In this document: positions 1-48,058 of the stretch, one piece after another
Layout: every line of letters starts with the position of its first letter
Position numbering within the stretch: position 1 is the first letter of the stretch
DNA from: an uncultured virus (IMG/VR IMGVR_UViG_3300012971_000927)
Taxonomy: Duplodnaviria; Heunggongvirae; Uroviricota; Caudoviricetes
IMG/VR virus record: IMGVR_UViG_3300012971_000927
Length of the DNA: 64,000 nucleotides
Reading direction: 5' to 3' (one strand)
Notes under the pieces: model-generated
The model's input: the letters and a program-made list of their open reading frames with translations, nothing else
The model's database searches: none
What the model was told of the DNA's origin: nothing
Position numbers and translations under genes: made by a program

Positions 1-29
1 CCGCGCCCGCCGGCTGCGGCTGTTTCCGC

Positions 30-251
30 GTGATGACCGAGAAAGAAGGCGACAAACGCTACTCCTGGGACCGCCACGACTTCGCCCAGATTCAGGAAGC
101 CAAGGCGTTCTTCGACAAGTGCGTGGCCGAGGGCCTGGTCCCTCACCGCGTCGGCGTGGATGGCCGTGCCAGCGCCGAGATCATGACCGAGTTTGACCCC
201 CTGGCGGAAGAAATCATTTTTGTGCCGGTCGCGCTCGTGACCGGCGGCTGA
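30..251 (+). CDS. Small protein ending in C-terminal Gly-Gly (possible ubiquitin-like/modifier protein); may begin upstream of the window
   Basis: ORF ends ...EFDPLAEEIIFVPVALVTGG-stop; followed by RBS AAGGAGG of the next gene. Confidence 0.5.
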   Translation: MMTEKEGDKRYSWDRHDFAQIQEAKAFFDKCVAEGLVPHRVGVDGRASAEIMTEFDPLAEEIIFVPVALVTGG

Positions 252-263
252 CAAGGAGGTTAT

Positions 264-1202
264 ATGATCTTCGCCAATACGGCGAGCGGCACCCAGGCTG
301 CTGTATATTTGCAGGCCGTCAACGGCTCCAACACCATCTCCATGCCTGGCACAGTCCGCGCCACCAACATCGAATACGCTCCTTCCGGGGATGCTACCGT
401 GCAAGTTGAATATGACCTGTGGCCACAAACCTGGGGCACTGCCGACGAGGCCACAGGCTGGGTGGTCCGGCACGCTCGCGGCACCGGCGATTCGTGGGTG
501 CAGGTCCGATGGGATCGCGTCACCAACGATACCAACTGCCTCCATTGCGCCGACACGCATGAGTGGGGCTGGGTAGGAACCAATACCACGAGCGCTACCG
601 CCCGTTACACGGCCAGAGTTCTTTATCGCGTAGGAGCGGGCCAGGGTTGGTACGAGGCGTGCCCCGGCGGCTTTGTCTACGCCACCAAAACCCCGGAGGA
701 ACGGCTCAAGGAAATCCTCCAGGCTCGCCAGGCCCCGGCAATCATCGGCTCACGCAAATCCATCCAGGTCACCGCCGACGAGCGGGAACGGCGGGCGCGG
801 GATACGCTCCGTCGCGTCCTGGGTGAAAGCAAGTTCCGCACCTTCATCAAGCAGGGATTCGTGTCGGTGAAGGCGAAAAGTGGCAAGGTCTACCAGATAT
901 TCCCCGGTAATGGCATCACCTGCGTCTACGACCAGGGGCAGATGGTGGAGCGGCTGTGCGTCGTCCTCACCGGGAATTTCCCTCCCACCGACTCGTTGAT
1001 TATGCGGTACATCCTCATTTTGAACAATGAGGAAATGTTCCGCTCCAAGGCCGTCAAGCACGGTGTCGGCCAGTATACCAACGACGCGGTGCAGGCCGTT
1101 GACGACCGCCCGCTCCCCGAAATCTTCGCGGAGTTGAAGGGACGGGGTGCCATCGCCATTGGCCGCACCGCCTCCAAACCGGCGGTCGAGAAGGTGGCGT
1201 AA
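264..1202 (+). CDS. Hypothetical protein; C-terminal domain with RLCV...FPPTD motif
   Basis: 312-aa ORF with strong RBS (AAGGAGG), directly after the GG-ending protein. Confidence 0.7.
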   Translation: MIFANTASGTQAAVYLQAVNGSNTISMPGTVRATNIEYAPSGDATVQVEYDLWPQTWGTADEATGWVVRHARGTGDSWVQVRWDRVTNDTNCLHCADTHEWGWVGTNTTSATARYTARVLYRVGAGQGWYEACPGGFVYATKTPEERLKEILQARQAPAIIGSRKSIQVTADERERRARDTLRRVLGESKFRTFIKQGFVSVKAKSGKVYQIFPGNGITCVYDQGQMVERLCVVLTGNFPPTDSLIMRYILILNNEEMFRSKAVKHGVGQYTNDAVQAVDDRPLPEIFAELKGRGAIAIGRTASKPAVEKVA

Positions 1203-1261
1203 CCATGTTTTCGGCGGGCCGGGGGTTAACGCCTCCGGCCCGTCCTGTTCTCAGGTGTGAA

Positions 1262-1831
1262 ATGCGAGTAATGGATGCCTTGCGTCTCCATCACAAGGAA
1301 GGAACCCACGGCCTGCTGGTGCTGGAGTTCCCGCCCTGTTGCCGGCATATAAAGACCGGCAACAATTGGTACTACCTGTCCTTGCCCTATCAATATTTCT
1401 TCCTCACCTACCGCCGCGCCGGGCCTGCGTTTCTGTTCTTTCCCCTTTGGCTCAGTTCCTTTCGCCTGGCCTGGCGGCGCAAGCCCTTGGAAGATATAAA
1501 CAGCCTGATGGCCCCTTGCGGCCTGCCGATGGGCCAGAACTTTTCGGAATTCTGCCACGGCGACTTCAAAAATATCCCGTGCCTGACCATTTCGCGTTGG
1601 GCAACCTCCATGCTGCACTGGTTCTGGTGTAGCAGTTTTTATTCTGGCGCAGCGCCCTGGGGCATGTGCATGGAGCAGTGGCACACCTGGAGCCGCGAAG
1701 ACCCGGCCTTCGTTCTGCGTATGGGCTGGACGGAAAGCACGCCCCTGCTCAAGTTGCTGACCGATTTGGGATTTAAGAAACTGTCCGAACGCACCAAACT
1801 TCAACCTTTCAGGGGACCGAAACATGATTAA
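1262..1831 (+). CDS. Possible prokaryotic E2 (Prok-E2_D-like) fold protein
   Basis: LEFPP..R, YYLSLPYQYF, LP.....FCHG, WFWCSSF pattern resembles prokaryotic E2 family D; recognised by eye only. Confidence 0.4.
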   Translation: MRVMDALRLHHKEGTHGLLVLEFPPCCRHIKTGNNWYYLSLPYQYFFLTYRRAGPAFLFFPLWLSSFRLAWRRKPLEDINSLMAPCGLPMGQNFSEFCHGDFKNIPCLTISRWATSMLHWFWCSSFYSGAAPWGMCMEQWHTWSREDPAFVLRMGWTESTPLLKLLTDLGFKKLSERTKLQPFRGPKHD

Positions 1832-2129
1832 ATTTGTCGGCACCAACCCCACCACCGGCGACAAGATCATCGGCATCGGTATCACCGCCGGCAACGTGGA
1901 GCGGCTGAAGGAGGGGAAGCCGATCCTGTTCAAACTGTCGGACCTGGGCCTGGACTGGCCCGGAGAGGTCACCATCTTCTACGGCGAGACTGAGGAAAAG
2001 ATCAGCGAGATGCTGGCCGAAGCCGGCCTGATCCCGCCGATCCGCGTGGGAGAGGGCAAGATTACCCTGGACATCCACAAGCAGTGGCCTGGCCGGAAGC
2101 CGCGTCCGGGCGGCAAGCCCCGCGAGTAA
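1824..2129 (+). CDS. Hypothetical protein
   Basis: 101-aa ORF overlapping upstream stop; GITAGNVERLKEGKPI motif. Confidence 0.65.
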   Translation: MIKFVGTNPTTGDKIIGIGITAGNVERLKEGKPILFKLSDLGLDWPGEVTIFYGETEEKISEMLAEAGLIPPIRVGEGKITLDIHKQWPGRKPRPGGKPRE

Positions 2130-2135
2130 GTTTGC

Positions 2136-2165
2136 TTTACAACCCCTTCTTTTCCCCGGTAGAAT
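2136..2165 (+). promoter_or_regulatory. Sigma70-type promoter driving the repeat array and tRNA
   Basis: TTTACA(AC)-18 nt-TAGAAT; member of a motif recurring ~14 times in the window. Confidence 0.7.
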
Positions 2166-2207
2166 ACCTACCGAGACATTCCGCTCTTTGACAACACGGC
2201 GGGTGGT

Positions 2208-2633
2208 ACTTATCCCGCGATGAGCGGGACGGCGTGGAAGCTGGATCAGATGCCGGTCCACCGTTGTGGTATATCCCGCGATGAGCGGGACAGCGTGGAA
2301 GCAAGGTCTACCTTCCCAACAAGGTCGGCCTGACGGTATCCCGCGTGAGCGGGACGGCGTGGAAGTCAGGTGCCGGGGGTATATCGGCAGTGCATATCCC
2401 GCGAAAGCGGGACGGCGTGGAAGCACGACGGGCGCGGCAGTCATCCAGACAGGCCGTGGAGCATATCCCGCGATGTGCGGGACGGCGTGGAAGAACCACG
2501 CGAAGATCATGGCCGGTTTTGTTTTCCGGCAGGCATATCCCGCGATGAGCGGGACGGCGTGGAAGTAAGCCCCGATGGGCCATCGGCTAGGCCAGAGTTC
2601 ATATATCCCGCATAAGCGGGACGGCGTGAAATA
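2208..2633 (+). CRISPR. CRISPR-like mini-array with no cas genes in the window: 7 repeats, 6 unique spacers
   Basis: Consensus (GCA)TATCCCGCGATGAGCGGGACGGCGTGGAAG; cores start at 2211, 2272, 2337, 2395, 2464, 2536, 2604; internal hairpin TCCCGC/GCGGGA; spacers ~26-39 nt; last repeat degenerate (GTGAAAT). Confidence 0.7.
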
Positions 2634-2636
2634 AAC

Positions 2637-2708
2637 GCCCCCATAGCATAATGGAAATGCGACGGCCTCTAAAGCCGATCTACGGGGGTTCGATTCCCCC
2701 TGGGGGCG
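2637..2708 (+). tRNA. Amber-suppressor tRNA (anticodon CUA)
   Basis: Acceptor GCCCCCA/TGGGGGC; D arm GCAT-AATGGAA-ATGC; anticodon arm CGGC-CT CTA AA-GCCG (anticodon 2669-2671); T arm GGGGG-TTCGATT-CCCCC; discriminator G; no encoded CCA. Confidence 0.88.
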
Positions 2709-2780
2709 CTATAAATCTGCTTTACAACCCGCAAGCAGGAACACTACAATAGGAAGGTGCAAAGAAGAGGAGGAACAGTC

Positions 2781-3299
2781 ATGAACGCGAAGCACAAGTT
2801 ACTGGTAGCATCCGCCCGAATGGCGGGTTCCGCTTTTGGTTGCACGGTGGTTTTCGTTCTGGACCACGACGATAACGGGGCCTACGGCGTTGCCGTCAAC
2901 CGCAAGGCCGAGGAAGTCCCCTGCACTTGCGGCCAATGCCCCAAGAATCCGTTCCCGATGTACCTGGGCGGTCCTTGCGACATCAACCACCGCATCATCA
3001 TGCTCCACGGCATCCCCCGTGTCGGGAAGAACAAGCTCCAAGTGATGCCCGGCCTGTGGCACGGTACGCCGAAGACCCTCAACAAGATCGTCAGCACCAT
3101 CCCGATGGACGACCACCGCTTCAAGGTGCTGACGGGTTACGCGGGTTGGGCACCCGGCCAGTTGGAGAACGAAGTTGCCCTGGGCTGCTGGCACGTCATG
3201 GACGCCACCCCCGATTTGATCCTCGACGGCGATCCCGCAGAACTCTGGGAGACGCTGTGCCCGAACACTACCGTTATACCCAAATTCAGCGCCAACTAG
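2781..3299 (+). CDS. YqgE/AlgH (DUF179) family protein
   Basis: TVVFVLDHDDNGAYGVAVNR, YLGGPC, GYAGWAPGQLENE..GCW motifs; RBS GGAGG; promoter at 2721-2750. Confidence 0.85.
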   Translation: MNAKHKLLVASARMAGSAFGCTVVFVLDHDDNGAYGVAVNRKAEEVPCTCGQCPKNPFPMYLGGPCDINHRIIMLHGIPRVGKNKLQVMPGLWHGTPKTLNKIVSTIPMDDHRFKVLTGYAGWAPGQLENEVALGCWHVMDATPDLILDGDPAELWETLCPNTTVIPKFSAN

Positions 3300-3340
3300 A
3301 GATATAAGACGCGACCACCCAGCCCCAAGGAGCCAACAAC

Positions 3341-4393
3341 ATGGTTGCGCATACCCGCATTGCCGAAAAGTTCGCCGCCAGAAAGATCAACCGCCGCACC
3401 GGCGACTGTAGCTGGTGTGGCAGCCGGATATTTTCCACCGGCAACACGCTGTATTCCTACGGCACCCACTTCCCGCTCGCCAAGTATTTGGGTGACCAGG
3501 CCGGGGAACACGTCTTTCTCAAGAATGGCGACCGTTACAGCAGCAGCACGAGCGGCCACCAGTCCATCACGCAGTCTGCTTGCCCTGGCCCTACCGTCTC
3601 CCGCAGCGCCCTGTCGGCTGCCGGCATCAACTTCGAGCAAGTCGTCCTAAATCCGGTGGACGGCGAGCCGCATGTCGTCAGCTATCGCAAGGACTTTCGG
3701 GAATATATCTACCGGGACGAGGACGGGCACTACTGGAAGGAGATGGACTACACCACGGCCAAGGCCCGGCGTCCTACCTTCTCCGAGCCATTCAAGCCGC
3801 CCCGCCAGGGCATGTTCGTGCCCCATTCGTGCAAGGACGAGGACCAGCACTACAAATCAGGGGTCTGGCACATCCTCGGTGCGGCGCTGATCCGTCGCGG
3901 CAACGAAGACTTCCTCTGTTCTCTGGACGAGGGCCAGTATTTCGTGGCCCAGCTACCTGTGCGGGTCAACACCATCGACCAGGCGCTCAAGGCGCTCAAG
4001 CCGGCGGAAGCGCGGCGAGCGGAGCGGGCTGGGAAGCAGGTGTTGCGCCAGGGGGAATGGTTTTTCCTCCCGACAGGGCTGGATCACAAGGGCTTTGCCG
4101 AGCGAGTGGGCCTGCGCAAGACGCAGTTGTTGGAGTTGGCCAAGATCGCGCCCCTCCCGCAACGACCGCGCCCTGACCAACGTGCAGACCCACGCAGCCG
4201 CAACATGCACTGCTGCCGCCAGTATTTCGTGGCTGGCGAGGGCATTTACGCGACCGGCCATGTCTATCACCGCAATGGCTGGAACAACCGCGTTACCAAC
4301 GAGCATCGGACCTTGAAGCTGGGCGACCAGTGGTATAAGGTAGTTCTCAACACCGAAGTGGCCTCTTGGACGGTCGGGGGCCGCTTCGATTAA
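3341..4393 (+). CDS. Hypothetical phage protein
   Basis: 350-aa ORF with RBS AAGGAG; YSYGTHFPLA and RQGEWFF motifs. Confidence 0.75.
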   Translation: MVAHTRIAEKFAARKINRRTGDCSWCGSRIFSTGNTLYSYGTHFPLAKYLGDQAGEHVFLKNGDRYSSSTSGHQSITQSACPGPTVSRSALSAAGINFEQVVLNPVDGEPHVVSYRKDFREYIYRDEDGHYWKEMDYTTAKARRPTFSEPFKPPRQGMFVPHSCKDEDQHYKSGVWHILGAALIRRGNEDFLCSLDEGQYFVAQLPVRVNTIDQALKALKPAEARRAERAGKQVLRQGEWFFLPTGLDHKGFAERVGLRKTQLLELAKIAPLPQRPRPDQRADPRSRNMHCCRQYFVAGEGIYATGHVYHRNGWNNRVTNEHRTLKLGDQWYKVVLNTEVASWTVGGRFD

Positions 4394-4408
4394 CCCCGGA
4401 GGAGCCTG

Positions 4409-4672
4409 ATGGCAAAGAAGACCAAGAACCCGAAAGTGACAGAGAAGGTCGTGCAAACCCTCGAATGCCTACAAGACCGGCACGACGGGTTGGACACGAG
4501 GGAAACCATCCAGTTCTACCGCGCCCTTCGCAAGCATCTGAAGGAATACATCCAGATGCTCAAGGGCAAGGGCCGGAAGGACAGGAAGGACAGGAAGGAC
4601 AAAAGGAAGTCCAAGAAAGGTGAAGCCCATGACAAGGGCGCACCGGAGTCGCCCCCTTCTGAACAGGGATAA
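4409..4672 (+). CDS. Small basic hypothetical protein
   Basis: RBS GGAGG; RKD triplet repeat; followed by a hairpin at ~4700-4745. Confidence 0.6.
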   Translation: MAKKTKNPKVTEKVVQTLECLQDRHDGLDTRETIQFYRALRKHLKEYIQMLKGKGRKDRKDRKDKRKSKKGEAHDKGAPESPPSEQG

Positions 4673-4760
4673 TGATGAGCGACGGACATTGCCAGTCACG
4701 TCCAGGTCCGAAGGGCTGCGGCTCTCCGGGCCTGGACGGTCTTTTATAGGACGGCATGAA

Positions 4761-5279
4761 ATGCACCACATCAAGGTGGAAGTGGTCAAGATTGGGGGGA
4801 AGGTGCCCGACCTTCAATGGCGTTGGCGTGGGGCAATTTACAAAATCCTCTGGGGTCTGTGGCTCGGAATTTGCATCGCCTGGTGTGGTCCGACACCGAC
4901 CGGCTTCCTTCTCGCCGGTTTCTTCGGTGTCATGCTGGGATGCTTTGCCTACGGGCAGGACTTGTGGAAGCGGCGAGCCAATTGGGCGGCGAAGAACCAC
5001 ATGGAACTGATCCATGTCTGCAACGAGCGTGCCAAGGCCGACCTGGACGCCCATGTACGGCAGATGATGGATCACTTCTTTGAGGGGTCGCCTATCCAAA
5101 ACTACACGATCCGGTTGGATGAGAACGGTCTTGTCATCAAAGTGGGGGACGATGACTGCATGGTGCCGGTGGACATGGCGATGCTGGGTGACGACCCGAT
5201 TGCCGCACTGGAGCGGGCACGCATCGAATGGATGTCGGCCAAGGCTAATCTCACCGACCTGGGCAACCGGGGAGATTGA
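4761..5279 (+). CDS. Hypothetical membrane protein
   Basis: Two hydrophobic segments (ILWGLWLGICIAW, FLLAGFFGVMLGCF). Confidence 0.6.
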   Translation: MHHIKVEVVKIGGKVPDLQWRWRGAIYKILWGLWLGICIAWCGPTPTGFLLAGFFGVMLGCFAYGQDLWKRRANWAAKNHMELIHVCNERAKADLDAHVRQMMDHFFEGSPIQNYTIRLDENGLVIKVGDDDCMVPVDMAMLGDDPIAALERARIEWMSAKANLTDLGNRGD

Positions 5280-5280
5280 A

Positions 5281-5673
5281 ATGGTCCTGGTGTTATCGAC
5301 GGCGGGCGAAGTCCAGTCCGTTGTCGAAGTCGCGGTCGCCCCGATGGCGGATCATGGCTTTTCGGAGCATGATATTTTTGGCATGAGACTCGCCCTAGAA
5401 GAAGCAATCGTCAATTCGCTCAAGCACGGAAATAAAAACGCCCCGGACAAGAAGGTTGTGGTCCGCACCGAATACAACTGTCAGGAGGTCATGGTCGAAG
5501 TGCGGGATGAGGGCGAAGGTTTCGACCCCGCCAGTGTCCCCGACCCCAGAGCCGAGGAGAACCTGGGGAAAGATTCAGGCCGTGGACTCCTGCTGATGCG
5601 GTTTTACACGACCTGGATGCAATACAACCGCGTCGGGAATGCAGTTACCCTGTGCAAACGGAAGTCACCATGA
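5281..5673 (+). CDS. RsbW/SpoIIAB-like anti-sigma factor Ser kinase (HATPase_c)
   Basis: RLALEEAIVNSLKHGN (N box), VRDEGEGFD (G1), SGRGLLLM (G2). Confidence 0.88.
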   Translation: MVLVLSTAGEVQSVVEVAVAPMADHGFSEHDIFGMRLALEEAIVNSLKHGNKNAPDKKVVVRTEYNCQEVMVEVRDEGEGFDPASVPDPRAEENLGKDSGRGLLLMRFYTTWMQYNRVGNAVTLCKRKSP

Positions 5674-6135
5674 GCGACCAAAACCTGTTGCGGGAAGCCG
5701 CCAACCTGCTGGTGAACGCGGACGAGGCCATCAACGCCTGCCCCGACTGTTTCCCGGACGCCTACTGCCTCAAACACGCGGAGGAGTGGGGCCAGGCCAT
5801 GCACAAACTCCGCGTAGCCCTGGGGAGGACGGGGCCAGATGAAGCCAAAGATTGTCAGTGAGCAAGTCGCCCGTCGTATGATCGTGTCCGGTGAAGCGGG
5901 CTACTGGTCGCCCTTCGCCAACCCGCCCATCGAACACGATGAAACGACCATCGTGCTGGTTCAAGGGAAGTTCTACTTGGTGCCCGCCGAGTATTTCCAT
6001 GTCCAGGCGCTAGGGCCGTGCGGCGTTGGACATGACGGCAGGATGAAGGGACTGCACAACATCACCATCAACGAAAGTCAATTACCCGACTTAGTGGCTT
6101 TGATCCAACAGGAGATCGCGCGTTATGGAAAATAA
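5670..6135 (+). other. Two small overlapping hypothetical ORFs (5670-5861, 5839-6135)
   Basis: Overlapping start/stop codons in operon arrangement. Confidence 0.5.
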
Positions 6136-6997
6136 GAACATCGACCTGGCCAACTGGATTGGCGTGGTGAAGCTCCAGAAGGTCAACTGGATGCAGGCCA
6201 ACCCCAAGCAGCCCGACATGAACCCGATGGTCATTGTGGAGCGGGAAGGCATCATCCGCGCCGTCCTTATCGCCCGCCGGCTCGACAAGTACGAGGGCCT
6301 GAACGTCGCCCTGGCTGCCCGCCGTGGCTTCGCCGCCGACGCCCTGACCCTGATCTGCGATGCCCACGTCGCCACGGCCAAATCCGGCGACGACAAGTTC
6401 ATGGAGAAATACAAGGAACCCGGTTCGATGCAACGGGCCTGTGACGAGCAGGGTGCCTGCAAAACCCGCGAGATCACCGACTGCATGATCTGCACCCGCG
6501 TCCGCGCCTCGGACGGCAAGACGCAGCATGTGACCTTGCCGTACTTCTACGACGAGAAATACGGGGGCGAGTTCCACTGGCTGGACGATGAAATCTGCAA
6601 CATGGATGAAAGCGATAGCGAAGTCCGGCTGACGGGCCTGATCCCCGAAAGCCTCAAGAAGATCATCCGCGAGCCGACGCTGCTGGACATCCCCGAACTG
6701 CAACGGGCTGCCAAAATCCTGGGCATTCCCCTGGATGATAAGGAGCGCCAGTTATATCATGGTGGTCGGGCCATCTGCCGCGTGCTGGCAGAACACGGTC
6801 ACCTGTGCATGATGCTGGAGGAACGCCCGGACATGGAGGACGTATGCCATACCGAGTCGGATTCAACGAAACAGACGGGGACCGCCACTTCAAGTGGGTC
6901 GAGGACGCACGCGGGCCGCAGTACGGGCAGCACTCCGTCCGGTTCTCGTGGCCGGTCCACGAAGAAGCAAAAGTCAAAACGGCGCAAGAAGCGGTAG
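6125..6997 (+). CDS. Hypothetical protein
   Basis: 290-aa ORF; low-complexity tail overlaps the next gene. Confidence 0.7.
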   Translation: MENKNIDLANWIGVVKLQKVNWMQANPKQPDMNPMVIVEREGIIRAVLIARRLDKYEGLNVALAARRGFAADALTLICDAHVATAKSGDDKFMEKYKEPGSMQRACDEQGACKTREITDCMICTRVRASDGKTQHVTLPYFYDEKYGGEFHWLDDEICNMDESDSEVRLTGLIPESLKKIIREPTLLDIPELQRAAKILGIPLDDKERQLYHGGRAICRVLAEHGHLCMMLEERPDMEDVCHTESDSTKQTGTATSSGSRTHAGRSTGSTPSGSRGRSTKKQKSKRRKKR

Positions 6998-7440
6998 ACT
7001 GGATATACGCCAAACTCATGGCCCAGACGGACGCGGTGTACGTCACCGACGCCCGTGGCCTCAAGGCCGAAGAAGCGGGCATCCCCTTGCCGAAAGGGGA
7101 TGCCCTCGCGTTGTTGAACAACGAGGCGTATGTGTTTCTCAATGTGGAAATTGGCGGCAAGGGCCACCTGCAATATAGCGCCCATGCTGAATACGAGCCG
7201 CCGGCCTGGCGGACCAGTATCGGCTGGGCGGCGCAAACCTGGCCTGTCTTTCTCGGTTTCATCCCGGCCCTGCTGCTGGCCGTTATCATTTCGCTGCTGG
7301 GTGGCAAGTTTGGTGACGGGTCGGGCAACGAGTCGGGCCTGGCTCATTTCTTTGGGCTTGCCTGGGTGATCGGCCTGGTCCTGATGGCCCTGATCGTGGC
7401 CTCCTGTGGGCTGGGGTTATTCTTTTTCTTGCGGGGCTGA
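6844..7440 (+). CDS. Hypothetical membrane protein
   Basis: RBS GGAGG before ATG 6844; two C-terminal hydrophobic helices. Confidence 0.6.
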   Translation: MPYRVGFNETDGDRHFKWVEDARGPQYGQHSVRFSWPVHEEAKVKTAQEAVDWIYAKLMAQTDAVYVTDARGLKAEEAGIPLPKGDALALLNNEAYVFLNVEIGGKGHLQYSAHAEYEPPAWRTSIGWAAQTWPVFLGFIPALLLAVIISLLGGKFGDGSGNESGLAHFFGLAWVIGLVLMALIVASCGLGLFFFLRG

Positions 7441-7441
7441 C

Positions 7442-8169
7442 GTGCTTATCTACTTCATTCAGGGCAAGCGCATCGAGTTCGATGACTCAAAACGCTACCT
7501 TGATTTTCAAGTTAAGACCGACACCCAGGAGAGATTCCTCACCCAAGTGGATTGGCCGCTCTTGCTGGGGAAGATGGAGAGACGCGAGTGGACCCTGGCA
7601 GACGATGAGTTCATTGACTTCCTCCGCTTCTTGGAACGCTGGGTATTCGACGCCCCTCGCAAACGGGCGCACCGACAGGCGATCCTCGAAGGCAGTATGG
7701 GTTTCCTCACCCGCGAATATTTCTTCGAGGACCACCTGGAGGGCGAACAGATCATCAACGAATTGGAAAACACCGGCCTGTTCGCCCGTTATTTGCTCGT
7801 CACCTTGGGCCTGGGTGCCGAGAATTATTGGGACACCCACAGGCCCCTGCCCTTTTAAGGGGAACGCCAATGGCTGAATTAACGCCTCAACTGCGCCAGG
7901 AAGTCGCGGACTTCGTGCGCGATACCATCGAGGTCTACAAGACCAAAGCGCGTACCCCACAGACCCTCCAGAAGATGGAACAAATCCACATCACGCAGGA
8001 GGGTCACCCGAATGTGGTGGTTGACGGCTACTTCGACATGGTGGAAGGGGAGGACTTGAAGACCGGGGTGTTCACATACGACGACACTATGATCCTGCTT
8101 TACCAGGAGTTGGAATCGCTGGGTGCCGGGCTGGAACTTATTGGTGGTCCTGGCAAATATCGGGTTTAG
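7442..8169 (+). other. Two hypothetical ORFs (7442-7858, 7870-8169)
   Basis: Tightly packed ORFs on the operon strand. Confidence 0.6.
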
Positions 8170-10280
8170 GTGGTTGGCGTTGCGAGAGTCTTGTGGAGCC
8201 TGCCCCGCAATACAGCCTTCTTTTCTTCCATTTCCCCGCCGGCACGTCCTTTCAATTCCTTCTCTGCCAGTCGCCAGCTTGCATATGCCTGCGAGACTGG
8301 CTCCTGGGCGGCGAGCAGTTCTTTTTCCAGGTCCGCCACTCGTTGATCGACCCTCGGCAGCTTTCGGTTGATCTGCCGTATTTCCTGATTAAGCTCACGG
8401 GCCTGGCGGCTGTCTTCTGGCAGCGATTTCACTTTTTCTTGGCGACCACTGAGCATTCTGTTAAGCCGGCCCTGGAGCGTCTTGGCATCGCTCAGCCGAC
8501 CCTTGGCCCGTTCGATGGACCTTCCTTGCCGCCTCACCTGGGCCTCGTATTCAAGCCTCAAGCGGTTGACCTCTCGCATTTGATCCACATACGGGTCGGC
8601 ATATCCGGTGCCTTCCTCGCCTTCCTCCCCCGGCCCGCTCATGAGCCGCGCTATCTTGTGCCCCGGCTGCTTGGGATCGAAAGGTTTGCTGGGGTCAAAT
8701 ATATCTTTATCGTAGCCCATCTCCTCGTCGCTGGAGATATAAGTGCCTGCCAACCGCGCTTGGCGGGTGGCTTGAGATCGCAGGGTGCGCACGATTTCGC
8801 TCATGTGGCGGGTATACAGAGATTTCAAAGTGCCCGTGTACATTTCCACCAGCGAGGTTGCCTCTCTGCTGGGGAGGCGATATTTCTTTGTAAGCACATA
8901 CCACAGTGCCTTTTTGGAGTTTTCCACAAGCTGTTCCATTATCTGCTTGTTGTGGGCCTTGGCGGCTTGCTGGGCTGGTCGGATCAGGGCACCGGACATG
9001 AGGATTAAATCCAGTTCGGTCGCGTCCCGGATGCGGTCGGACAAAGCCTGGAGGGCGGGCATACCGAGCGGATCGGCCCGCAAGGCGGCGTTGATAACGT
9101 GATATTTATTGCCTAGCTGGCTCTCCACGGCCTTGAGGATTTCATCCGGGGTCATGGCGGAAACAAGATGAACACGGCTCACCGCCCCGGATGTTTTATG
9201 CGGCTCCACCACATTGGCCGTGAGGCCGTGATACTGCACTTCGGGGTGGGCACCAAAAATGGGCCGCAACTGTTTGTCCTTCGGGGAGAAGGCCAATCCT
9301 TGGTACGCCGAATAACGGTTGGTCGGGTCGGGGTCGTTGGCGTACCTTTGGCCGACGAAATTGACCCATATGTTCCACATGACGCCAGGATCAATGCCCA
9401 ATTCATCCTTCATGTGAGCGAGGACTTCCAGGTAGGCGTCCGCCACTTTCTCGGTTGCACCTTCCCTGCTTTTGTCTTTTATTCCCCAATAGCCGCCCTT
9501 TTCGGCACCCTTAATCATGCGCCCAAGCTCGGCCCATTTATTGCGCAGTTGCGGATCAAGGTTTCGATTTTTGGCCATCATGTTGGCCATTGCGGAATAG
9601 ATGGTAATATTGTGGGTATCCATACAACCCAACTGGCCGAAGATCATCTGGACCACGAAACCGGCCTTGACTGTCCCGATGCCGGTAATGGGCACCAGTT
9701 CCTTTAGTATTTGGCCGAACTCGCCTCGGTCAGCCAGTTCCATGAACCGCTTGTATAACGTTTCCCGGTTATTCCAGACGTGCGAGATGAGTTCTGATTT
9801 ATTGCCTTCACCCAGGTCGATGACGCCCGCCAGCAAGCCCCCTTTGAAATCGGGGGCCATTTTGGACGCGATCCGTTGACCGCCCACCCCGGCCACGAAA
9901 TTGCCGACCTCATCGACGGAAACCCGGTTACGCTTGCGCAGGAAGTCCATGAGGACCGGGAACCATTCGTTAAAGCGACTGAACTTGGTGTTGGCGGTCA
10001 GGGGTGCGAACAGAAGCACCTGGGCGAAATTTTCGGCATTTCGTTGGGCGAATTCCTGAATATATGGCGAGTGTTGGGCGAAGCCCTGGTAACCCCGGAT
10101 GCAGACGTGCCCGCCCTTGCCTTCTTTTTCAAATACCGGGCGTGAGGAGATGGGCCGACCCTGGGCGTCCAGTATCGCCTCGGCCAAGATACGCTCGGCC
10201 ACCCTGGCATCGAACCACAACTGAAATTCGTACCGCCGCAACATCGCAGTATTTATGACCGAAAGGAAGTTTTTGCTCAA
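8166..10280 (-). CDS. Large protein with HhH-GPD (DNA glycosylase-like) motif and C-terminal coiled coil
   Basis: ELVPITGIGTVKAGFVVQMIFGQLGCMDTHN reads as a helix-hairpin-helix plus catalytic-type Asp; charged heptad-like C-terminus. Confidence 0.55.
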   Translation of the reverse strand: MSKNFLSVINTAMLRRYEFQLWFDARVAERILAEAILDAQGRPISSRPVFEKEGKGGHVCIRGYQGFAQHSPYIQEFAQRNAENFAQVLLFAPLTANTKFSRFNEWFPVLMDFLRKRNRVSVDEVGNFVAGVGGQRIASKMAPDFKGGLLAGVIDLGEGNKSELISHVWNNRETLYKRFMELADRGEFGQILKELVPITGIGTVKAGFVVQMIFGQLGCMDTHNITIYSAMANMMAKNRNLDPQLRNKWAELGRMIKGAEKGGYWGIKDKSREGATEKVADAYLEVLAHMKDELGIDPGVMWNIWVNFVGQRYANDPDPTNRYSAYQGLAFSPKDKQLRPIFGAHPEVQYHGLTANVVEPHKTSGAVSRVHLVSAMTPDEILKAVESQLGNKYHVINAALRADPLGMPALQALSDRIRDATELDLILMSGALIRPAQQAAKAHNKQIMEQLVENSKKALWYVLTKKYRLPSREATSLVEMYTGTLKSLYTRHMSEIVRTLRSQATRQARLAGTYISSDEEMGYDKDIFDPSKPFDPKQPGHKIARLMSGPGEEGEEGTGYADPYVDQMREVNRLRLEYEAQVRRQGRSIERAKGRLSDAKTLQGRLNRMLSGRQEKVKSLPEDSRQARELNQEIRQINRKLPRVDQRVADLEKELLAAQEPVSQAYASWRLAEKELKGRAGGEMEEKKAVLRGRLHKTLATPTT

Positions 10281-10325
10281 CTATATAGTCGGCGGGCGGG
10301 GTGAGAGAAATCCGAAAAAATCGAC

Positions 10326-10354
10326 TTGACAATCCTCCCCACCGCCCGTAAAGT
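10326..10354 (+). promoter_or_regulatory. Sigma70-type promoter of the pth-like gene
   Basis: TTGACA-17 nt-TAAAGT, followed by RBS AAGGAG at ~10380. Confidence 0.65.
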
Positions 10355-10391
10355 GTGAGAGTTGGCAAACCGCACCCGAAAGGAGAGAGCA

Positions 10392-10754
10392 ATGCACTAG
10401 GTTGACGAAGATCGGACCCCCTTCTGCTACCTGTTTGTCCGCACGGACTTGAGCATCCCGCAACAGGTAGTCCAGGCCAGCCATGCAGCTTACGAGGCTG
10501 GTCGTTTTCACGATTCCACTCTGGACCACCCCCATTTCGTTGTCTGCGGCGTCAAAAGCGAGGCCGATCTGCACAAGATCGTGTCCAGGCTCGACTGCGC
10601 CGCCATTCCCTACCGCATCTTCCGCGAGGCAGACCGCCAGGACGAGGCCACCGCGCTCATGACGGCCCCCGTCTTCGGGGATCAGCGTCGGCTGTTCCGC
10701 CGCTATCGCTGCCTGGGGAGCAACGGGTTCGCGCCTCTGGAGGTTGAAACCTGA
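10392..10754 (+). CDS. Pth2-like peptidyl-tRNA hydrolase with in-frame UAG at codon 3
   Basis: RBS-ATG CAC TAG GTT...; frame continues FCYLFVRTDLSIPQQVVQASHAA...TALMTAP, typical of the Pth2 fold; no ATG/GTG/TTG between the TAG and the first conserved strand. Confidence 0.75.
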
Positions 10755-10760
10755 TGTCCC

Positions 10761-10927
10761 GCCCCTGTGGTCTAACTGGAGATGACATCGCTTGGACTAA
10801 CTTCTGGCGGCTTTGCGTTGCCTGGCGGAAGTACAACGTGGGGCAACGGCTTGTCGTGAGAGGCCCTGGCAAGTAGGCCCATGAAGCGAAAGATGCGATA
10901 GTGGTGGTTCGAGTCCATCCGGGGGCA
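10761..10927 (+). ncRNA. tRNA-like RNA with ~100-nt structured insertion in place of the anticodon loop
   Basis: Acceptor GCCCCTG/CGGGGGC plus A; D arm GTC-TAACTGGAGAT-GAC; stem TCGC/GCGA; T arm GGTGG-TTCGAGT-CCATC; 167 nt in total. Confidence 0.7.
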
Positions 10928-10972
10928 CTGGTCTTTAACAAGCGTGCAAGTCACGCAGAAAAGGAGAAGAAC

Positions 10973-11458
10973 ATGAACGCGACTGAAACCCAGGTCCACC
11001 GCAGCAAGTGGGGTTACCATCCCTGCGGCAAGGAGATCGCCAAGAAGCTCCGCACCATCAACCGGGTCTATAACGCGGCCCTGCACCTGGAAGCGGCCCA
11101 CGAACGCTGGGCAGGCAAGCTCCCAGAGAACCGGGTGCAGTACCGTGCGGTACGCGATGCCGCCGGTCAGAAGGTGGGGCGTGAGAAGGTGCTGGACGGC
11201 AAGGGCCAGCCGGTGCCCTTGCCGGAGCCGGTGCGGTGCCCGATCTTCGAGTTCACCTACCACTGGCCCGGCGATGGCAAGCGGCCATATCGCATCAGCC
11301 GAGTGGGGGAAGCCATCCTCCAGGCCGCACGGCAGGCCCGGACTCCGGTGGCCAACGCGGAGGACGTGAAGCGGCTGGCCTTCGGCTACGGCGACGGGTC
11401 GGAGGAGGCGGTCTGCCGGCTGTACGGGCAGTGTGCGGCCTGGGAAGCTTCACGGTAA
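10973..11458 (+). CDS. Hypothetical phage protein
   Basis: RBS AAGGAG; HRSKWGYHPC motif. Confidence 0.7.
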   Translation: MNATETQVHRSKWGYHPCGKEIAKKLRTINRVYNAALHLEAAHERWAGKLPENRVQYRAVRDAAGQKVGREKVLDGKGQPVPLPEPVRCPIFEFTYHWPGDGKRPYRISRVGEAILQAARQARTPVANAEDVKRLAFGYGDGSEEAVCRLYGQCAAWEASR

Positions 11459-11534
11459 CATCTTGACACCAGGGACGGAGGCGGTAGAATCTTCCCTGGT
11501 GTCCAATCTCAATCTCTCCAGCAAGGAGTCGCAC

Positions 11535-11948
11535 ATGGCAGAACAGCAGACGCCCGGCACGTTCATTTGGAACGAGTTCACCACGCGGGACGCGGAAGCA
11601 GCCAAGCAGTTCTACGGGCGGTTGTTCGGTTGGAAGTTTCAGCCGGCCCCCGGCCAGGAGGCCACCGGCCCGGTCTACGACATCATTCTGGCCAACGACA
11701 AGCCCATTGGTGGCGTCATGAAGATGGGGCTGGAGCATCCCAAGGACGCCCCGCCGCATTGGAGGCCCTACGTCGCGGTCGAGAACGTGGACAAAACCTG
11801 TGCCCAGGCTGAGGAGAACGGCGGCAAAATCTGCGTTCCGCCGACTGACATCCCCGGCACCGGGCGGTTCGCCGTCATCAGCGACCCGACCGGCGGCGTG
11901 TTTTCGATCCTGGGGCCGAGTCCTGGCAAGGCCGAACCCGGCCAGTGA
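11535..11948 (+). CDS. VOC/glyoxalase-bleomycin resistance family protein
   Basis: FIWNEFTTRD.EAAKQFYGRLFGW, PHWRPYVAVENVD, GRFAVISDPTG; TTGACA/TAGAAT promoter upstream. Confidence 0.9.
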   Translation: MAEQQTPGTFIWNEFTTRDAEAAKQFYGRLFGWKFQPAPGQEATGPVYDIILANDKPIGGVMKMGLEHPKDAPPHWRPYVAVENVDKTCAQAEENGGKICVPPTDIPGTGRFAVISDPTGGVFSILGPSPGKAEPGQ

Positions 11949-11968
11949 CGCCAGGATATATTGACTCC

Positions 11969-12010
11969 AACCCCTTGCCTGACGATAATTAGGCAAGGGG
12001 TTTTTTATTT
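11969..12010 (+). terminator. Intrinsic terminator
   Basis: AACCCCTTGCCT/AGGCAAGGGGTT stem followed by a T tract. Confidence 0.75.
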
Positions 12011-13376: not shown

Positions 13377-13848
13377 GTATGACGCCCGTTTTTGCGAGGG
13401 CAAGGGCGGTGGGATTATTGACTACTCGCGGCTCATACTTGAGAAGGGCACGCCTTTCCTGGGCAGCACGCCCTCCTCCAAGTTCCCCGATGCCAAGCGG
13501 TGGTGGACGATCAGCCGGCCCCAGATCAAGCAGTGCTTCTATAATTCGCAGTTGTTCGCCCTCTCCTGCGACCAGGGCACCTACTACGAGGGGTATGCTT
13601 TCACTTTCTTCTTTCCGTTCCATCACGCCTGGGTCGTGTTGGATGGCAAGGTGGTGGATTTCACCCTGGAGGCAGTCGATTTGGTCGAGCGGCGTGACAA
13701 AATCAAGCCGGCGGGGCCTGATGAAGTAACAGCGTATCTCGGCGTCGAGATACCCACGGACGCACTTCGGAAGTACGTCCTGAAATATAAATCTGCGGAA
13801 CCCTACGCCCAGATGTACCATTTGGGTTCCAAGGAGCGGTTTTTCTAG
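13297..13848 (+). CDS. Hypothetical protein (Cys-His-Asp pattern, transglutaminase/papain-like possible)
   Basis: KQCFYNS...YYEGYA...HHAWV...VVDFT. Confidence 0.55.
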   Translation: MPRRKRNLLEAGNKLASIRQFLQSLVEYDARFCEGKGGGIIDYSRLILEKGTPFLGSTPSSKFPDAKRWWTISRPQIKQCFYNSQLFALSCDQGTYYEGYAFTFFFPFHHAWVVLDGKVVDFTLEAVDLVERRDKIKPAGPDEVTAYLGVEIPTDALRKYVLKYKSAEPYAQMYHLGSKERFF

Positions 13849-14598: not shown

Positions 14599-14625
14599 AC
14601 AAACCGACCCTGGCGCGGTACAATG

Positions 14626-14655
14626 AGGGGAGGCTCGGCCTCCCCTTTTTTGTTT
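14626..14655 (+). terminator. Intrinsic terminator
   Basis: AGGGGAGGC/GCCTCCCCT stem plus T tract. Confidence 0.7.
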
Positions 14656-14667
14656 GAGGAGTCACCA

Positions 14668-45386: not shown

Positions 45387-45556
45387 CTTTACAACTGGCC
45401 TTTCCGGGCAGTATAATAGACCCAACGGCATCGGAGGCCGTGAGCCGCAAAGGACTTACGGCGAATCACGAAAATCGTGAACGCCTTTCGGAATCAGGGG
45501 CGGTAGAGTCGGAGGACTTTCACCCCGATACGACTGGCTTCTCGGAGGGTTCTGCG

Positions 45557-47842: not shown

Positions 47843-47869
47843 TCGGCTAGAGTGACCTGGGTGGGGCGG

Positions 47870-47906
47870 GCATATCCTGACCCCCCAGGTCGGGACGGCG
47901 TGGAAG
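47870..47906 (+). repeat. Solitary variant copy of the array repeat
   Basis: GCATATCCTGACCCCCCAGGTCGGGACGGCGTGGAAG: same flanks (GCATATCC ... CGGGACGGCGTGGAAG) with a different, longer hairpin. Confidence 0.8.
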
Positions 47907-48018
47907 AAGGATGAAATCGACCGGATGCGGTGGTTGCCCATCCTGAACACCCCGCCTCACCGCCCCCGCGCCAAAAGGCGGGGGCGGGTTTGTTTCCAGC
48001 CCCAATCTGGTTAGTACG

Positions 48019-48058
48019 ACGCCGCAGCCCCGGTTTTTCGCCGGGGCTGCGGCGTTTT
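48019..48058. terminator. Strong GC hairpin/terminator
   Basis: CGCCGCAGCCCCGG/CCGGGGCTGCGGCG plus TTTT; second hairpin at ~47960-47995. Confidence 0.7.

What the first reader, a model, noticed from the sequence alone, without database searches (positions are those of the whole stretch)
2136..2708. Cas-less CRISPR-like array with structure-conserved repeats and hairpin spacers, apparently co-transcribed with an amber-suppressor tRNA
Seen: a promoter, a ~40-nt leader, 7 repeats, then the tRNA ~4 nt after the last repeat. Repeat variation falls mostly in the hairpin loop (GATGA, GTGA, GAAA, GATGT, ATAA) and the 5' flank. The TCCCGC/GCGGGA stem is invariant, and the CGGCGTGGAAG tail differs only in R2 and R7. 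Spacers vary widely (26-39 nt) and most fold on themselves (TGGATC/GGTCCA, ACCTT/AAGGT, TGCCG/CGGCA, GCCGG/CCGGC, CCGATG/CATCGG). Knowledge: active arrays copy one repeat and have a narrow spacer-length range; the layout (short 5' flank, stem, tail ending GAAG) resembles type I-G repeats. Inference: this is not an actively acquiring array but a fixed polycistronic RNA, such as crRNA mimics/decoys for the host Cascade, guides for an effector encoded elsewhere, or a protein sponge (two GGA per unit, CsrA-like). Cleavage at the last repeat could also release the tRNA.
Basis: partly seen in the sequence, partly recalled or inferred. Interest (0 to 1): 0.9.

Follow-up and report, generated by a model that had tools for sequence, protein, structure and literature searches.

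The report
Phage-borne cas-less type I-G mini-CRISPR array
A soil phage-like element carries a short, promoter-driven array of CRISPR repeats of the type I-G kind but no cas genes nearby, so it probably makes guide-like RNAs that use or jam the CRISPR proteins made by another genome.

Summary
The array is real. Seven hairpin repeats (2206-2632) sit behind a sigma-70-like promoter (2136-2165), and a tRNA(CUA) starts 4 nt after the last repeat. A covariance model finds exactly these seven units plus one solitary unit at 47867-47906.

The repeat belongs to a CRISPR family. On another soil-metagenome contig (L008), 55 units with the same invariant base (UCC/GGA) and tail (CGGCGUGGAAG) lie directly behind a type I-G operon (Cas3g, Cas8g, Cas7g, Csb2). 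A third contig (L011, a phage with terminase genes) carries a cas-less two-spacer cassette of the same family.

The 64-kb window has no Cas hit in Pfam, NCBIfam or PADLOC. The hairpin is supported: 332 of 332 stem cells pair, with UA/CG covariation. The layout (stem, 3-4 nt, 8-nt handle) fits published Csb2 processing.

Window spacers are irregular: 26-39 nt, against 38 nt in 32 of 54 L008 intervals. No protospacer was found. Only 2 of 6 spacers fold better than shuffles.

The kind is known: virus-borne mini-arrays, Racr and Cracr arrays. This is a type I-G case. Whether it acts as decoy, regulator or guide set is unresolved.

The parts
2136..2165 (+). Sigma-70-like promoter, TTTACA-18-TAGAAT, belonging to a promoter class (CTTTACAAC) that recurs in the element
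   Evidence: 10 of 12 matches; the motif occurs 10 times in the window, 9 on the + strand, against 2.4 expected; 0 of 100 shuffles reach 10.
2166..2205 (+). Short leader between the -10 hexamer and the first repeat
   Evidence: R1 model hit starts at 2205.
2206..2240 (+). Repeat R1 (core TATCCCGC-GATGA-GCGGGACGGCGTGGAAG from 2211)
   Evidence: 40.9 bits.
2241..2271 (+). Spacer S1. Its 3' boundary is uncertain by about 5 nt.
   Evidence: Folding z -0.45.
2272..2301 (+). Repeat R2 (tail variant ACAGCG)
   Evidence: 38.6 bits.
2302..2336 (+). Spacer S2, the only strongly self-folding spacer
   Evidence: z -2.76, 0 of 200 shuffles as good.
2337..2365 (+). Repeat R3 (GTGA loop)
   Evidence: 46.3 bits.
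2366..2394 (+). Spacer S3 (short)
   Evidence: Folding z -2.22.
2395..2423 (+). Repeat R4 (GAAA loop)
   Evidence: 49.1 bits.
2424..2463 (+). Spacer S4
2464..2493 (+). Repeat R5 (GATGT loop)
   Evidence: 40.4 bits.
2494..2535 (+). Spacer S5
2536..2565 (+). Repeat R6 (core identical to R1)
2566..2603 (+). Spacer S6
2604..2632 (+). Terminal repeat R7. The hairpin is intact (ATAA loop) but the handle is degenerate (GTGAAAT). No spacer follows.
   Evidence: 43.5 bits.
2637..2709 (+). tRNA with anticodon CUA (amber-reading). Its amino-acid identity was not determined. No promoter or terminator separates it from the array.
   Evidence: The cloverleaf appears in the whole-transcript fold.
2721..2750 (+). 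Second promoter of the same class, driving the AlgH-like gene (2757-3299)
47867..47906 (+). Solitary repeat unit of the same family, with an 8-bp stem (TATCCTGACC-CCCCA-GGTCGGGACGGCGTGGAAG). It lies just after the SNF2 helicase gene.
   Evidence: (30.2 bits, E about 1e-7).
47907..47945 (+). Spacer-like 32-33 nt followed by a degenerate repeat remnant (CATCCTG)
   Evidence: read from the sequence.
47950..48058 (+). Two G+C-rich hairpins, each followed by a T run (terminator-like by eye), closing the solitary cassette
   Evidence: read from the sequence. This region was not scanned with the terminator tool.

Best explanation
The region is a cas-less mini-CRISPR array of a divergent type I-G repeat family, carried by a soil phage-like mobile element.

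Proposed mechanism:
1. The array is transcribed from one of the element's own recurring sigma-70-type promoters, as a single precursor with the downstream tRNA(CUA).
2. Each repeat folds into a short hairpin. Only the hairpin base (UCC/GGA), the UA before it and the 3' tail CGGCGUGGAAG are fixed.
3. A type I-G Csb2 (a Cas5-Cas6 fusion) made elsewhere would bind the hairpin. That source could be the host, a co-resident element like L008, or a part of this genome outside the window.
4. Csb2 would cut 3-4 nt 3' of the stem and leave an 8-nt handle, CGUGGAAG.
5. This would yield six crRNA-like RNAs that load onto Cas7g/Cas8g.

Three of the six spacers are shorter than any regular L008 interval, and none has a detectable target. 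The most likely use is therefore to occupy or re-programme a type I-G effector (competition or regulation, as with Racr and Cracr RNAs), rather than classical adaptive immunity.

Shown here: the array, the hairpin covariation, the family link to a type I-G operon, the absence of cas genes in the window, and the promoter and tRNA arrangement.
Inferred: transcription, processing by Csb2, loading, and the biological effect.
For: 1. Model R1 finds 7 contiguous units plus 1 solitary unit in the window, and nothing else below E 0.1.
2. In 64 units from three contigs, 332 of 332 stem cells pair. One pair covaries UA 39 / CG 17 / UG 4 and another GC 50 / CG 2. 0 of 500 shuffles reach the covariation score. 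The alignment was fitted to the model, which favours pairing.
3. L008 holds 55 units of the same family on the same strand, directly downstream of Cas3g (546 bits), Cas8g (35.9 bits), Cas7g (60-65 bits) and Csb2 (193 bits).
4. The stem, 3-4 nt and 8-nt layout matches the published type I-G repeat. There, a 36-nt repeat is cut by Csb2 4 nt 3' of a 7-bp hairpin, leaving an 8-nt handle (PMC9638904, passages seen).
5. The handle is intact wherever a spacer follows. It is degenerate only in the terminal repeats of the window array and of L008.
6. L011, a phage contig with TerS and TerL (246.9 bits), has a cas-less cassette of the same family: promoter, repeat, spacer, repeat, spacer, half-repeat, terminator.
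7. The window has no Cas hit. It does carry counter-defence genes: ArdC and a DarG-like macro domain at 199.8 bits.
8. Window intervals are 26-39 nt. In L008, 32 of 54 intervals are 38 nt and the regular ones span 38-45 nt.
9. L007 matches window 1-3942 at 99.975% identity and carries the same seven repeats. Contig pieces from two other studies show no differences over 2375-2600 and 2079-2229.
10. All seven hairpins and the tRNA cloverleaf appear in the minimum-energy fold of 2172-2712, z -3.4.
Against: - No RNA data exist, so transcription and processing are unshown.
- The host is unknown. No chromosomal array of this repeat family was found. Among 151 sampled Planctomycetota genomes, 8 gave single weak model hits; 7 of these look like chance matches in ordinary sequence, and L037 (flanked by A+T-rich non-coding sequence) may be a solitary unit.
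- The only cognate cas operon (L008) shares no protein with the window. It is not known to occur in the same cell.
- No spacer matches the L008 cas promoter or leader. No exact match over 13 nt was found anywhere, and the 10-13-nt matches are at chance level. The regulatory (Cracr) reading has no positive support.
- Three spacers have ordinary length and could be ordinary guides.
- The window is only 64 kb of a possibly larger genome, so cas genes may lie outside it.
Confidence: 0.6

Rival explanations
1. It is an ordinary phage-encoded CRISPR locus. The array works with a type I-G cas operon of the same genome that lies outside the 64-kb window, and its spacers are guides against competing phages or host defences.
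For: L008 shows that this repeat family can sit next to a complete type I-G interference module without adaptation genes in the 20.6 kb held. Three window spacers (35-39 nt intervals) are near the L008 norm. The handle is conserved exactly where a spacer follows.
Against: No Cas hit in 64 kb. The further 2.1 kb held in L007 shows only small ORFs; these were listed but not scanned against any family library. The solitary unit lies 45 kb from the array, so the units are scattered as stand-alone cassettes. Three spacers are 6-12 nt shorter than the commonest L008 interval. No protospacer was found in the loci held, INPHARED phages, PLSDB plasmids or 401 Planctomycetota genomes.
Confidence: 0.2
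2. It is a decaying remnant of a once-functional array, picked up by recombination and now without function.
For: Irregular spacer lengths, a degenerate last repeat and no detectable targets.
Against: All seven hairpins and six of seven handles are intact, while the loops vary freely. The array has its own promoter of the element's recurring class. Contig pieces from other studies show no differences over the parts they cover. A second phage (L011) and a second site in the window keep compact promoter/terminator cassettes of the same family.
Confidence: 0.1
3. It is a structured RNA or DNA element with no link to CRISPR. Candidates are a protein sponge (CsrA-like), an array of binding sites on DNA (iterons, partition sites), or a leader that serves only tRNA expression.
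For: Each unit has two GGA motifs. The hairpins have GNRA-type loops in 2 of 7 units, by inspection. The array touches a tRNA.
Against: The same motif forms a 55-unit array behind type I-G cas genes. Loop length changes (4 or 5 nt in the window, 3-8 nt in L008) and compensatory stem changes fit a folded strand, not a fixed double-stranded binding site. Unit spacing is irregular at 58-72 nt. The GGA motifs are in the paired base and the tail, not in loops.
Confidence: 0.05

Closest known systems
Virus-borne mini-CRISPR arrays (Medvedeva et al. 2019, PMC6858448; only the search listing and start of the abstract were seen)
   Same: A short array in a viral genome, without cas genes, whose repeats belong to a CRISPR-Cas system encoded elsewhere.
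   Different: Those arrays carry spacers against related viruses. No target was found here. This case has seven repeats, irregular spacer lengths, repeats that differ in their loops, a type I-G family in soil bacteria, and a tRNA fused downstream.
RNA anti-CRISPRs (Racr; Camara-Wilpert et al. 2023, PMC10651486; abstract and passages seen)
   Same: Repeat mimics in phage genomes, behind their own promoter and away from cas genes. Non-targeting crRNAs also compete for Cas proteins. The window's solitary unit at 47867-47906 has the look of a solitary repeat unit.
   Different: Racrs are mostly solitary repeats, whereas the main feature here has seven units. 'I-G' does not occur in that paper's main text; its supplements were not read. 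Inhibition is untested here.
Viral crRNA-like regulatory RNA arrays ('Cracr arrays'; Liu et al., bioRxiv 10.1101/2024.10.29.618823; abstract and sections 7 and 8 read)
   Same: Multiplexed, array-like transcription units in phages. Their shortened pseudo-spacers (21-24 nt in the type I-E case) are processed by host Cas6 and compete with crRNAs. Three window spacers are similarly short.
   Different: Cracrs are defined by a pseudo-spacer that matches a cas or toxin promoter. No such match was found against the one cognate locus held. The reported arrays have 2-3 spacers and belong to types I-C, I-E and I-F. Type I-G is not listed in section 7.
Type I-G CRISPR-Cas of Thioalkalivibrio sulfidiphilus (Shangguan et al. 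2022, PMC9638904; passages seen; the organism name is recalled, not from a call)
   Same: The repeat has a 5' flank, a 6-7 bp hairpin, 3-4 nt and an 8-nt handle. Csb2 is the processing enzyme. The unit period is about 72 nt.
   Different: The handle here is CGUGGAAG. A Planctomycetota type I-G array in the data (L014) ends in ATTGAAGC on its probable transcribed strand. The L008 Csb2 is at most 35% identical to those of 401 sampled Planctomycetota genomes. The window itself has no cas genes.

Membership tests
CRISPR array (generic) | Three or more direct repeats of 23-50 nt separated by unique spacers | tested here: met
   Seven repeats of 29-35 nt and six unique spacers.
CRISPR array (generic) | Repeats nearly identical within the array | tested here: inconclusive
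   Six distinct cores among seven. The differences lie in the loop, at one tail position, and in the last handle. L008 has 47 distinct cores among 55 units, yet sits beside cas genes.
CRISPR array (generic) | Narrow spacer-length range | tested here: not met
   Intervals are 26-39 nt in the window. In L008, 32 of 54 intervals are 38 nt.
CRISPR array (generic) | Adjacent cas genes | tested here: not met
   No Cas family among 95 ORFs (Pfam), 41 ORFs (NCBIfam) or 74 ORFs (PADLOC). The genome beyond the window was not seen.
Type I-G repeat family | The same repeat family found next to a type I-G cas operon | tested here: met
   L008 has Cas3g, Cas8g, Cas7g and Csb2, followed by 55 units on the same strand.
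Type I-G repeat family | Hairpin followed by about 4 nt and an 8-nt 5' handle | tested here: met
   A 6-bp stem followed by an 11-nt tail (3 + 8), by sequence. The published layout comes from PMC9638904.
Type I-G repeat family | Cleavage and binding by Csb2 | not testable with these tools
   Needs an in vitro or in vivo assay.
RNA anti-CRISPR (Racr) | Repeat mimic in a viral genome, behind a promoter and away from cas genes | tested here: met
   That the element is phage-like rests on its gene content. No virion genes were seen in the window.
RNA anti-CRISPR (Racr) | Likeness to the CRISPR repeats of the host's own system | tested here: inconclusive
   The host is unknown. The repeats match L008's array. 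No array was found in 151 sampled Planctomycetota genomes.
RNA anti-CRISPR (Racr) | Inhibits CRISPR interference | not testable with these tools
   Needs a phage or plasmid challenge assay.
Cracr / crRNA-like regulatory RNA array | Pseudo-spacer partly complementary to a cas or toxin promoter (at least 9 PAM-proximal bp; criterion) | tested here: inconclusive
   In L008 the exact matches of 10 nt or more that were listed (the five longest per spacer) all lie inside coding sequence, and none is in the cas3g upstream region or the leader. Only one cognate locus was available.
Cracr / crRNA-like regulatory RNA array | Shortened spacers | tested here: met
   Three of six intervals (26, 28 and 32 nt) are below every regular L008 interval (38-45 nt).
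Virus-borne mini-array for interviral conflict | Spacers that match related viruses | tested here: not met
   No match in the loci held or INPHARED phages. PLSDB gave only E 0.4 hits. 401 Planctomycetota genomes gave only chance-level hits. IMG/VR and the metagenome collection were not searched with spacers.
CsrA-type sponge RNA | GGA presented in hairpin loops or single-stranded sites, repeated many times | tested here: not met
   The loops are GAUGA, GUGA, GAAA, GAUGU and AUAA. One GGA is paired in the stem base and the other is in the handle tied to the cas operon.

The most novel reading that the evidence does not exclude
Several unrelated soil phages carry hard-wired cassettes of crRNA-like RNAs for a divergent type I-G system that lacks adaptation genes. 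The arrays of this system are non-repetitive by selection. In L008, 47 of 55 repeat cores differ, yet every stem still pairs. The arrays would then evolve by point mutation under a structural constraint that protects them from recombination, not by Cas1-Cas2 copying. On this reading the window's array, with three truncated and three full-length spacers, is a multiplexed type I-G anti-defence or regulatory unit. It is expressed together with an amber-reading tRNA, which would tie CRISPR subversion to the phage's translational programme.
Probability: 0.2. Interest if true: 0.75.

Novelty: new member of a known kind. Interest (0 to 1): 0.5.

Why it matters
It would extend phage-borne repeat mimics and mini-arrays to type I-G, the least studied type I subtype.

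The 64 natural repeat variants (window, L008, L011) work like a mutational scan. They show which positions the type I-G processing and loading machinery needs: UA, UCC/GGA and the tail CGGCGUGGAAG. The upper stem and loop are free. This can be tested directly with Csb2, and it helps in designing non-repetitive type I-G guide arrays.

It also gives a concrete three-contig system for asking how phages exploit or jam CRISPR effectors encoded by other genomes: a cas-bearing locus and two cas-less phage cassettes.

Tried and rejected
Searches for the element or its relatives:
- Whole-genome access: none is held for this window.
- INPHARED megablast of window 1-12000: no match.
- IMG/VR scans. The repeat with a CCCGC stem gave 5 single chance hits. 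Two tails 45-75 nt apart gave 0 hits. A generic unit gave 1 hit inside a coding region.
- The genome-contig scan for two tails gave 20 loci. Only one contig is a CRISPR (L014/L028, a Planctomycetota MAG, type I-G). It belongs to a different repeat whose probable transcribed strand is the opposite one, so its likeness to the tail is superficial. The other loci hold tandem repeats of other kinds, several of them in protein-coding sequence by inspection.
- Model R1 in 151 Planctomycetota genomes gave 8 single weak hits. Seven look like chance matches in ordinary sequence; L037, flanked by A+T-rich non-coding sequence, may be a solitary unit.
- Relatives of the L008 Csb2: none in IMG/VR; at most 35% identity in 23 of 401 Planctomycetota genomes.
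- Relatives of the neighbouring 350-aa protein in IMG/VR: 4 distant loci (28-35% identity), none with R1 units.

Protospacer searches, all negative or at chance level:
- S2 shares 20 exact nt plus 7 more with an SdhC-like gene, and 20 of 21 nt with an RNase R gene. These lie in two different genomes. By my estimate that is what chance gives in about 4 billion bases.

Other checks:
- Rfam in E-value mode found no CRISPR-DR family on the window array or the L008 array.
- Sequencing runs: no RNA holder was listed.
- Joints 1921/1952 to 2679 and 2239 to 2717 in diverged contigs are of low depth and have short sides, and what lies between is unknown. They were not used.
- The protein atlas gave no score of 0.9 or more for the two upstream ORFs.
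- TAG recoding: no convincing in-frame TAG read-through in the window.
- Host phylum: the OtsA-like protein is only 47-50% identical to Planctomycetota homologues. A TIGR03000 hit falls below its cutoff. The phylum is therefore not settled.
- The tRNA(CUA) of IMG/VR contig L055 is not a close relative of the window's tRNA.
Full report
WHAT IS THERE

Window 2136-2709 holds four things in a row:
- a sigma-70-like promoter, TTTACA-18-TAGAAT;
- a leader of about 40 nt;
- seven direct repeats with six unique spacers;
- a tRNA with anticodon CUA, 4 nt after the last repeat (ARAGORN; Rfam tRNA 64.6 bits).

The promoter belongs to a class (CTTTACAAC) that occurs 10 times in the window, 9 on the + strand and mostly in front of genes. 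Chance expectation is 2.4, and 0 of 100 shuffles reach 10. No terminator-like or promoter-like site lies between the array and the tRNA. One precursor carrying both is therefore the simplest reading. No RNA data exist: no RNA holder was listed.

THE REPEAT

Each unit reads TA-UCCCGC-loop-GCGGGA-CGGCGUGGAAG. In the window the loops differ (GAUGA three times, GUGA, GAAA, GAUGU, AUAA). R2 has one change in the tail. R7 keeps the hairpin but has a degenerate handle, and no spacer follows it.

I built covariance model R1 from 20 units with 4-nt loops. In the window it finds exactly these seven units (38-49 bits) and one more at 47867-47906 (30.2 bits, E about 1e-7). Nothing else scores below E 0.1.

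The minimum-energy fold of the whole transcript (2172-2712) shows all seven hairpins and the tRNA cloverleaf, with z -3.4.

RELATIVES

One scan of the metagenome collection with the repeat pattern returned three relevant contigs.

L007 is a 6-kb contig, 99.975% identical to window 1-3942, with the same seven repeats and tRNA.

L008 is a 38-kb contig of which 20.6 kb are held. On its minus strand it carries 55 units of the same family at a period of 64-76 nt.
- Directly upstream, on the same strand, lie Cas3g (TIGR02621, 546 bits), a Cas8g-like protein (PADLOC 35.9 bits; NCBIfam 'Cas3-extension', 60 bits), Cas7g/Csb1 (60-65 bits) and Csb2 (TIGR02165, 193 bits).
- This is a complete type I-G interference module.
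- No Cas1, Cas2 or Cas4 was hit among the 14 larger ORFs of the part held.

L011 is a 2.5-kb phage contig with TerS and TerL (phrog_38, 246.9 bits).
- Directly after the terminase gene it has a promoter-like site, a truncated repeat, a 35-nt spacer, a full repeat with a UUCG loop, a 40-nt spacer, half a repeat and a terminator hairpin.
- It has no cas gene.

The window shares no detectable protein with L008 or L011. The three elements therefore share only the repeat family.

STRUCTURE AND FAMILY

I aligned 64 units to the model (window 8, L008 55, L011 1).
- All 332 stem cells form standard pairs.
- The fourth pair is UA in 39, CG in 17 and UG in 4 distinct rows. The fifth is GC in 50 and CG in 2.
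- 0 of 500 shuffles reach the covariation score, and slid controls pair in only 37-59% of cells.
- The alignment was fitted to the model, which favours pairing. The raw sequences show the same pattern.

The columns UA, UCC, GGAC and GCGUGGAAG are invariant or nearly so. The upper stem and the loop (3-8 nt) are free.

The layout of stem, 3-4 nt and an 8-nt end matches the characterised type I-G repeat. That repeat is 36 nt long. Csb2 cuts it 4 nt 3' of a 7-bp hairpin, leaves an 8-nt 5' handle and stays on the hairpin (PMC9638904, passages seen).

Three observations agree that the + strand is the transcribed one:
- the 3' part is conserved and the 5' part is variable;
- the last repeat is degenerate at the tRNA end, and likewise at the cas-distal end of L008;
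- the promoter lies upstream.

On the opposite strand only 7 nt would follow the stem, too few for 4 + 8.

Rfam has no matching CRISPR-DR family.

WHAT IS ODD

1. Spacer lengths. Intervals were measured the same way in both arrays, from the end of the tail to 3 nt before UAUCC. L008 intervals are 38 nt in 32 of 54 cases; the rest are 39-45 nt, plus two junctions with no spacer. The window has 28, 32, 26, 37, 39 and 35 nt. Three window spacers are thus 6-12 nt shorter than the commonest L008 interval.

2. Repeat heterogeneity. There are 6 distinct cores among 7 in the window and 47 among 55 in L008. In L008 only the seven repeats nearest the cas genes are identical.

3. Scattered units. The window's solitary unit is followed by a 32-33-nt spacer-like stretch, a degenerate remnant (CATCCTG) and two hairpins that look like terminators by eye.

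4. Stability.
   - A 226-nt contig from a different study, dated 2025, shows no differences over 2375-2600.
   - A 151-nt contig from another study shows none over 2079-2229, which spans the promoter, the leader and R1.
   - A piece over the upstream gene has 4 differences in 202 nt.
   - These are small samples. They show no turnover at the leader end.

SPACERS

Self-folding is weak. Only S2 and S3 beat dinucleotide shuffles, and the set is only marginally more structured than the L008 spacers (p = 0.06).

No target was found:
- Short-word BLAST of the six window spacers and 52 L008 spacers against the window and the loci held at that point gave nothing beyond chance. The two L011 spacers and the solitary spacer against the window and all 67 loci then held likewise gave nothing. 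The one exception is a 21-nt perfect match of an L008 spacer to L008's own cas7g gene.
- INPHARED phages gave no match.
- PLSDB plasmids gave only E 0.4 hits.
- 401 Planctomycetota genomes gave only chance-level hits.
- No exact match longer than 13 nt was found in L008, L014 or the window itself.

IMG/VR and the metagenome collection were not searched with spacers.

CONTEXT

The window looks like part of a large phage or other mobile element. It holds:
- counter-defence genes: ArdC and a DarG-like macro domain;
- replication, partition and regulation genes: an SNF2 helicase, ParB-like and sigma-like proteins, an excisionase-type HTH and HNH nucleases;
- metabolic genes: an ArgRS-like protein, a GT20 trehalose-phosphate synthase and a glycosyltransferase cluster.

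No virion genes and no Cas genes were seen in the window.

The host is unknown:
- Type I-G Csb2 homologues occur in 23 of 401 sampled Planctomycetota genomes, but the best is 35% identical to L008's.
- No array of this family was found in 151 sampled genomes.

INTERPRETATION

That this is a type I-G-family array is well supported (about 0.9).

That it works with Cas proteins not encoded nearby follows from the absence of cas genes. L011 and the solitary cassette show the same stand-alone design.

Among possible uses, I favour competition for, or re-programming of, a type I-G effector. The reasons are:
- the irregular and truncated spacers;
- the lack of targets;
- the counter-defence neighbourhood;
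- published precedent. Non-targeting crRNAs and Racrs compete for Cas proteins (PMC10651486, passages seen). Viral crRNA-like arrays with 21-24-nt pseudo-spacers are processed by host Cas6 and silence cas operons (bioRxiv 10.1101/2024.10.29.618823, sections 7 and 8 read).

The defining Cracr feature, a pseudo-spacer matching a cas or toxin promoter, was not found against the single cognate locus available. An ordinary guide function cannot be excluded, whether with an operon outside the window or against rival phages.

NOVELTY

Virus-borne mini-arrays, solitary repeat units and Cracr arrays are in print (listings).

My searches found no description of a type I-G viral mini-array. They also found no CRISPR-type array fused to a suppressor tRNA.
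- The Racr paper's main text has no occurrence of 'I-G'.
- Section 7 of the Cracr preprint lists types V-A, I-F, I-E, I-C and I-B.
- Supplementary tables of these papers were not read and could list type I-G cases.

I therefore file this as a new member of a known kind. The unusual traits are loop-diversified repeats, mixed spacer lengths and the tRNA fusion. The strongly non-repetitive 55-unit array of L008 is the most surprising thing met on the way.

Noticed in passing
L008:8643-12301 (minus strand): A 55-unit type I-G array with 47 distinct repeat cores. Every stem still pairs through compensatory changes. Only the seven units nearest the cas genes are identical. Two junctions have no spacer (units 10/11 and 20/21). 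No Cas1, Cas2 or Cas4 was hit in the 20.6 kb held.
   Followed up: partly
L008:12006-12046 (spacer 4) and L008:14020-14040: One spacer of the L008 array has a 21-nt perfect match (E 2e-6 in the small database) to L008's own cas7g gene. This could be a partial self-match with a regulatory role, or chance.
   Followed up: no
window 47867-48058: A solitary repeat unit with an 8-bp stem, a 32-33-nt spacer-like stretch, a degenerate repeat remnant and two hairpins followed by T runs. It lies in the 3' region of the SNF2 helicase gene (45440-47842).
   Followed up: partly
L011:1830-2060: A phage contig (TerS, TerL) with a compact cas-less two-spacer cassette of the same repeat family directly after the terminase gene. 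One repeat has a UUCG loop, and the last repeat is cut to its 5' half before a terminator.
   Followed up: partly
window 2135, 2720, 28889, 32603, 40891, 45387, 48060, 50320, 57105 (+ strand): A recurring promoter-like motif, CTTTACAAC, mostly in front of genes. There are 10 matches against 2.4 expected.
   Followed up: partly
window 40942-41898 and 44137-44601: Counter-defence candidates: ArdC with a zincin peptidase (110 and 95 bits) and a DarG-like macro domain protein (PADLOC 199.8 bits).
   Followed up: no
window 14623-16095 and 17415-18902: An arginyl-tRNA-synthetase-like protein (short, well below NCBIfam cutoffs) and a full GT20 trehalose-6-phosphate synthase (465 bits). A minus-strand cluster of glycosyl- and methyltransferases follows at 20.5-28.6 kb.
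   Followed up: no
window 13846 and 42104: Two TAG codons are each followed in frame by a coding-like ORF (13291-13848 with 13864-14598; 41777-42106 with 42122-42463). These are possible read-through sites for the tRNA(CUA). There is no sign of general TAG recoding.
   Followed up: partly
window 63364-63506 and 63743-63840: Tandem repeats of 18 nt (7.9 copies, 92% matches) and of 27 or 48 nt at the end of the window.
   Followed up: no
L014:2645-15012 (Planctomycetota MAG contig): A 169-unit type I-G array beside Cas3g (684 bits) and a Csb2 that is split over two ORFs. It has 70 distinct 37-mers among the repeats. Its middle section has repeats with a duplicated GGCGTGGAAGAC segment.
   Followed up: partly
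L055:2334-3831 (IMG/VR contig of 132.8 kb): A distant relative of the window's 350-aa protein lies near tRNA-Leu, tRNA-Pro and another tRNA(CUA). The two CUA tRNAs are not close relatives.
   Followed up: partly
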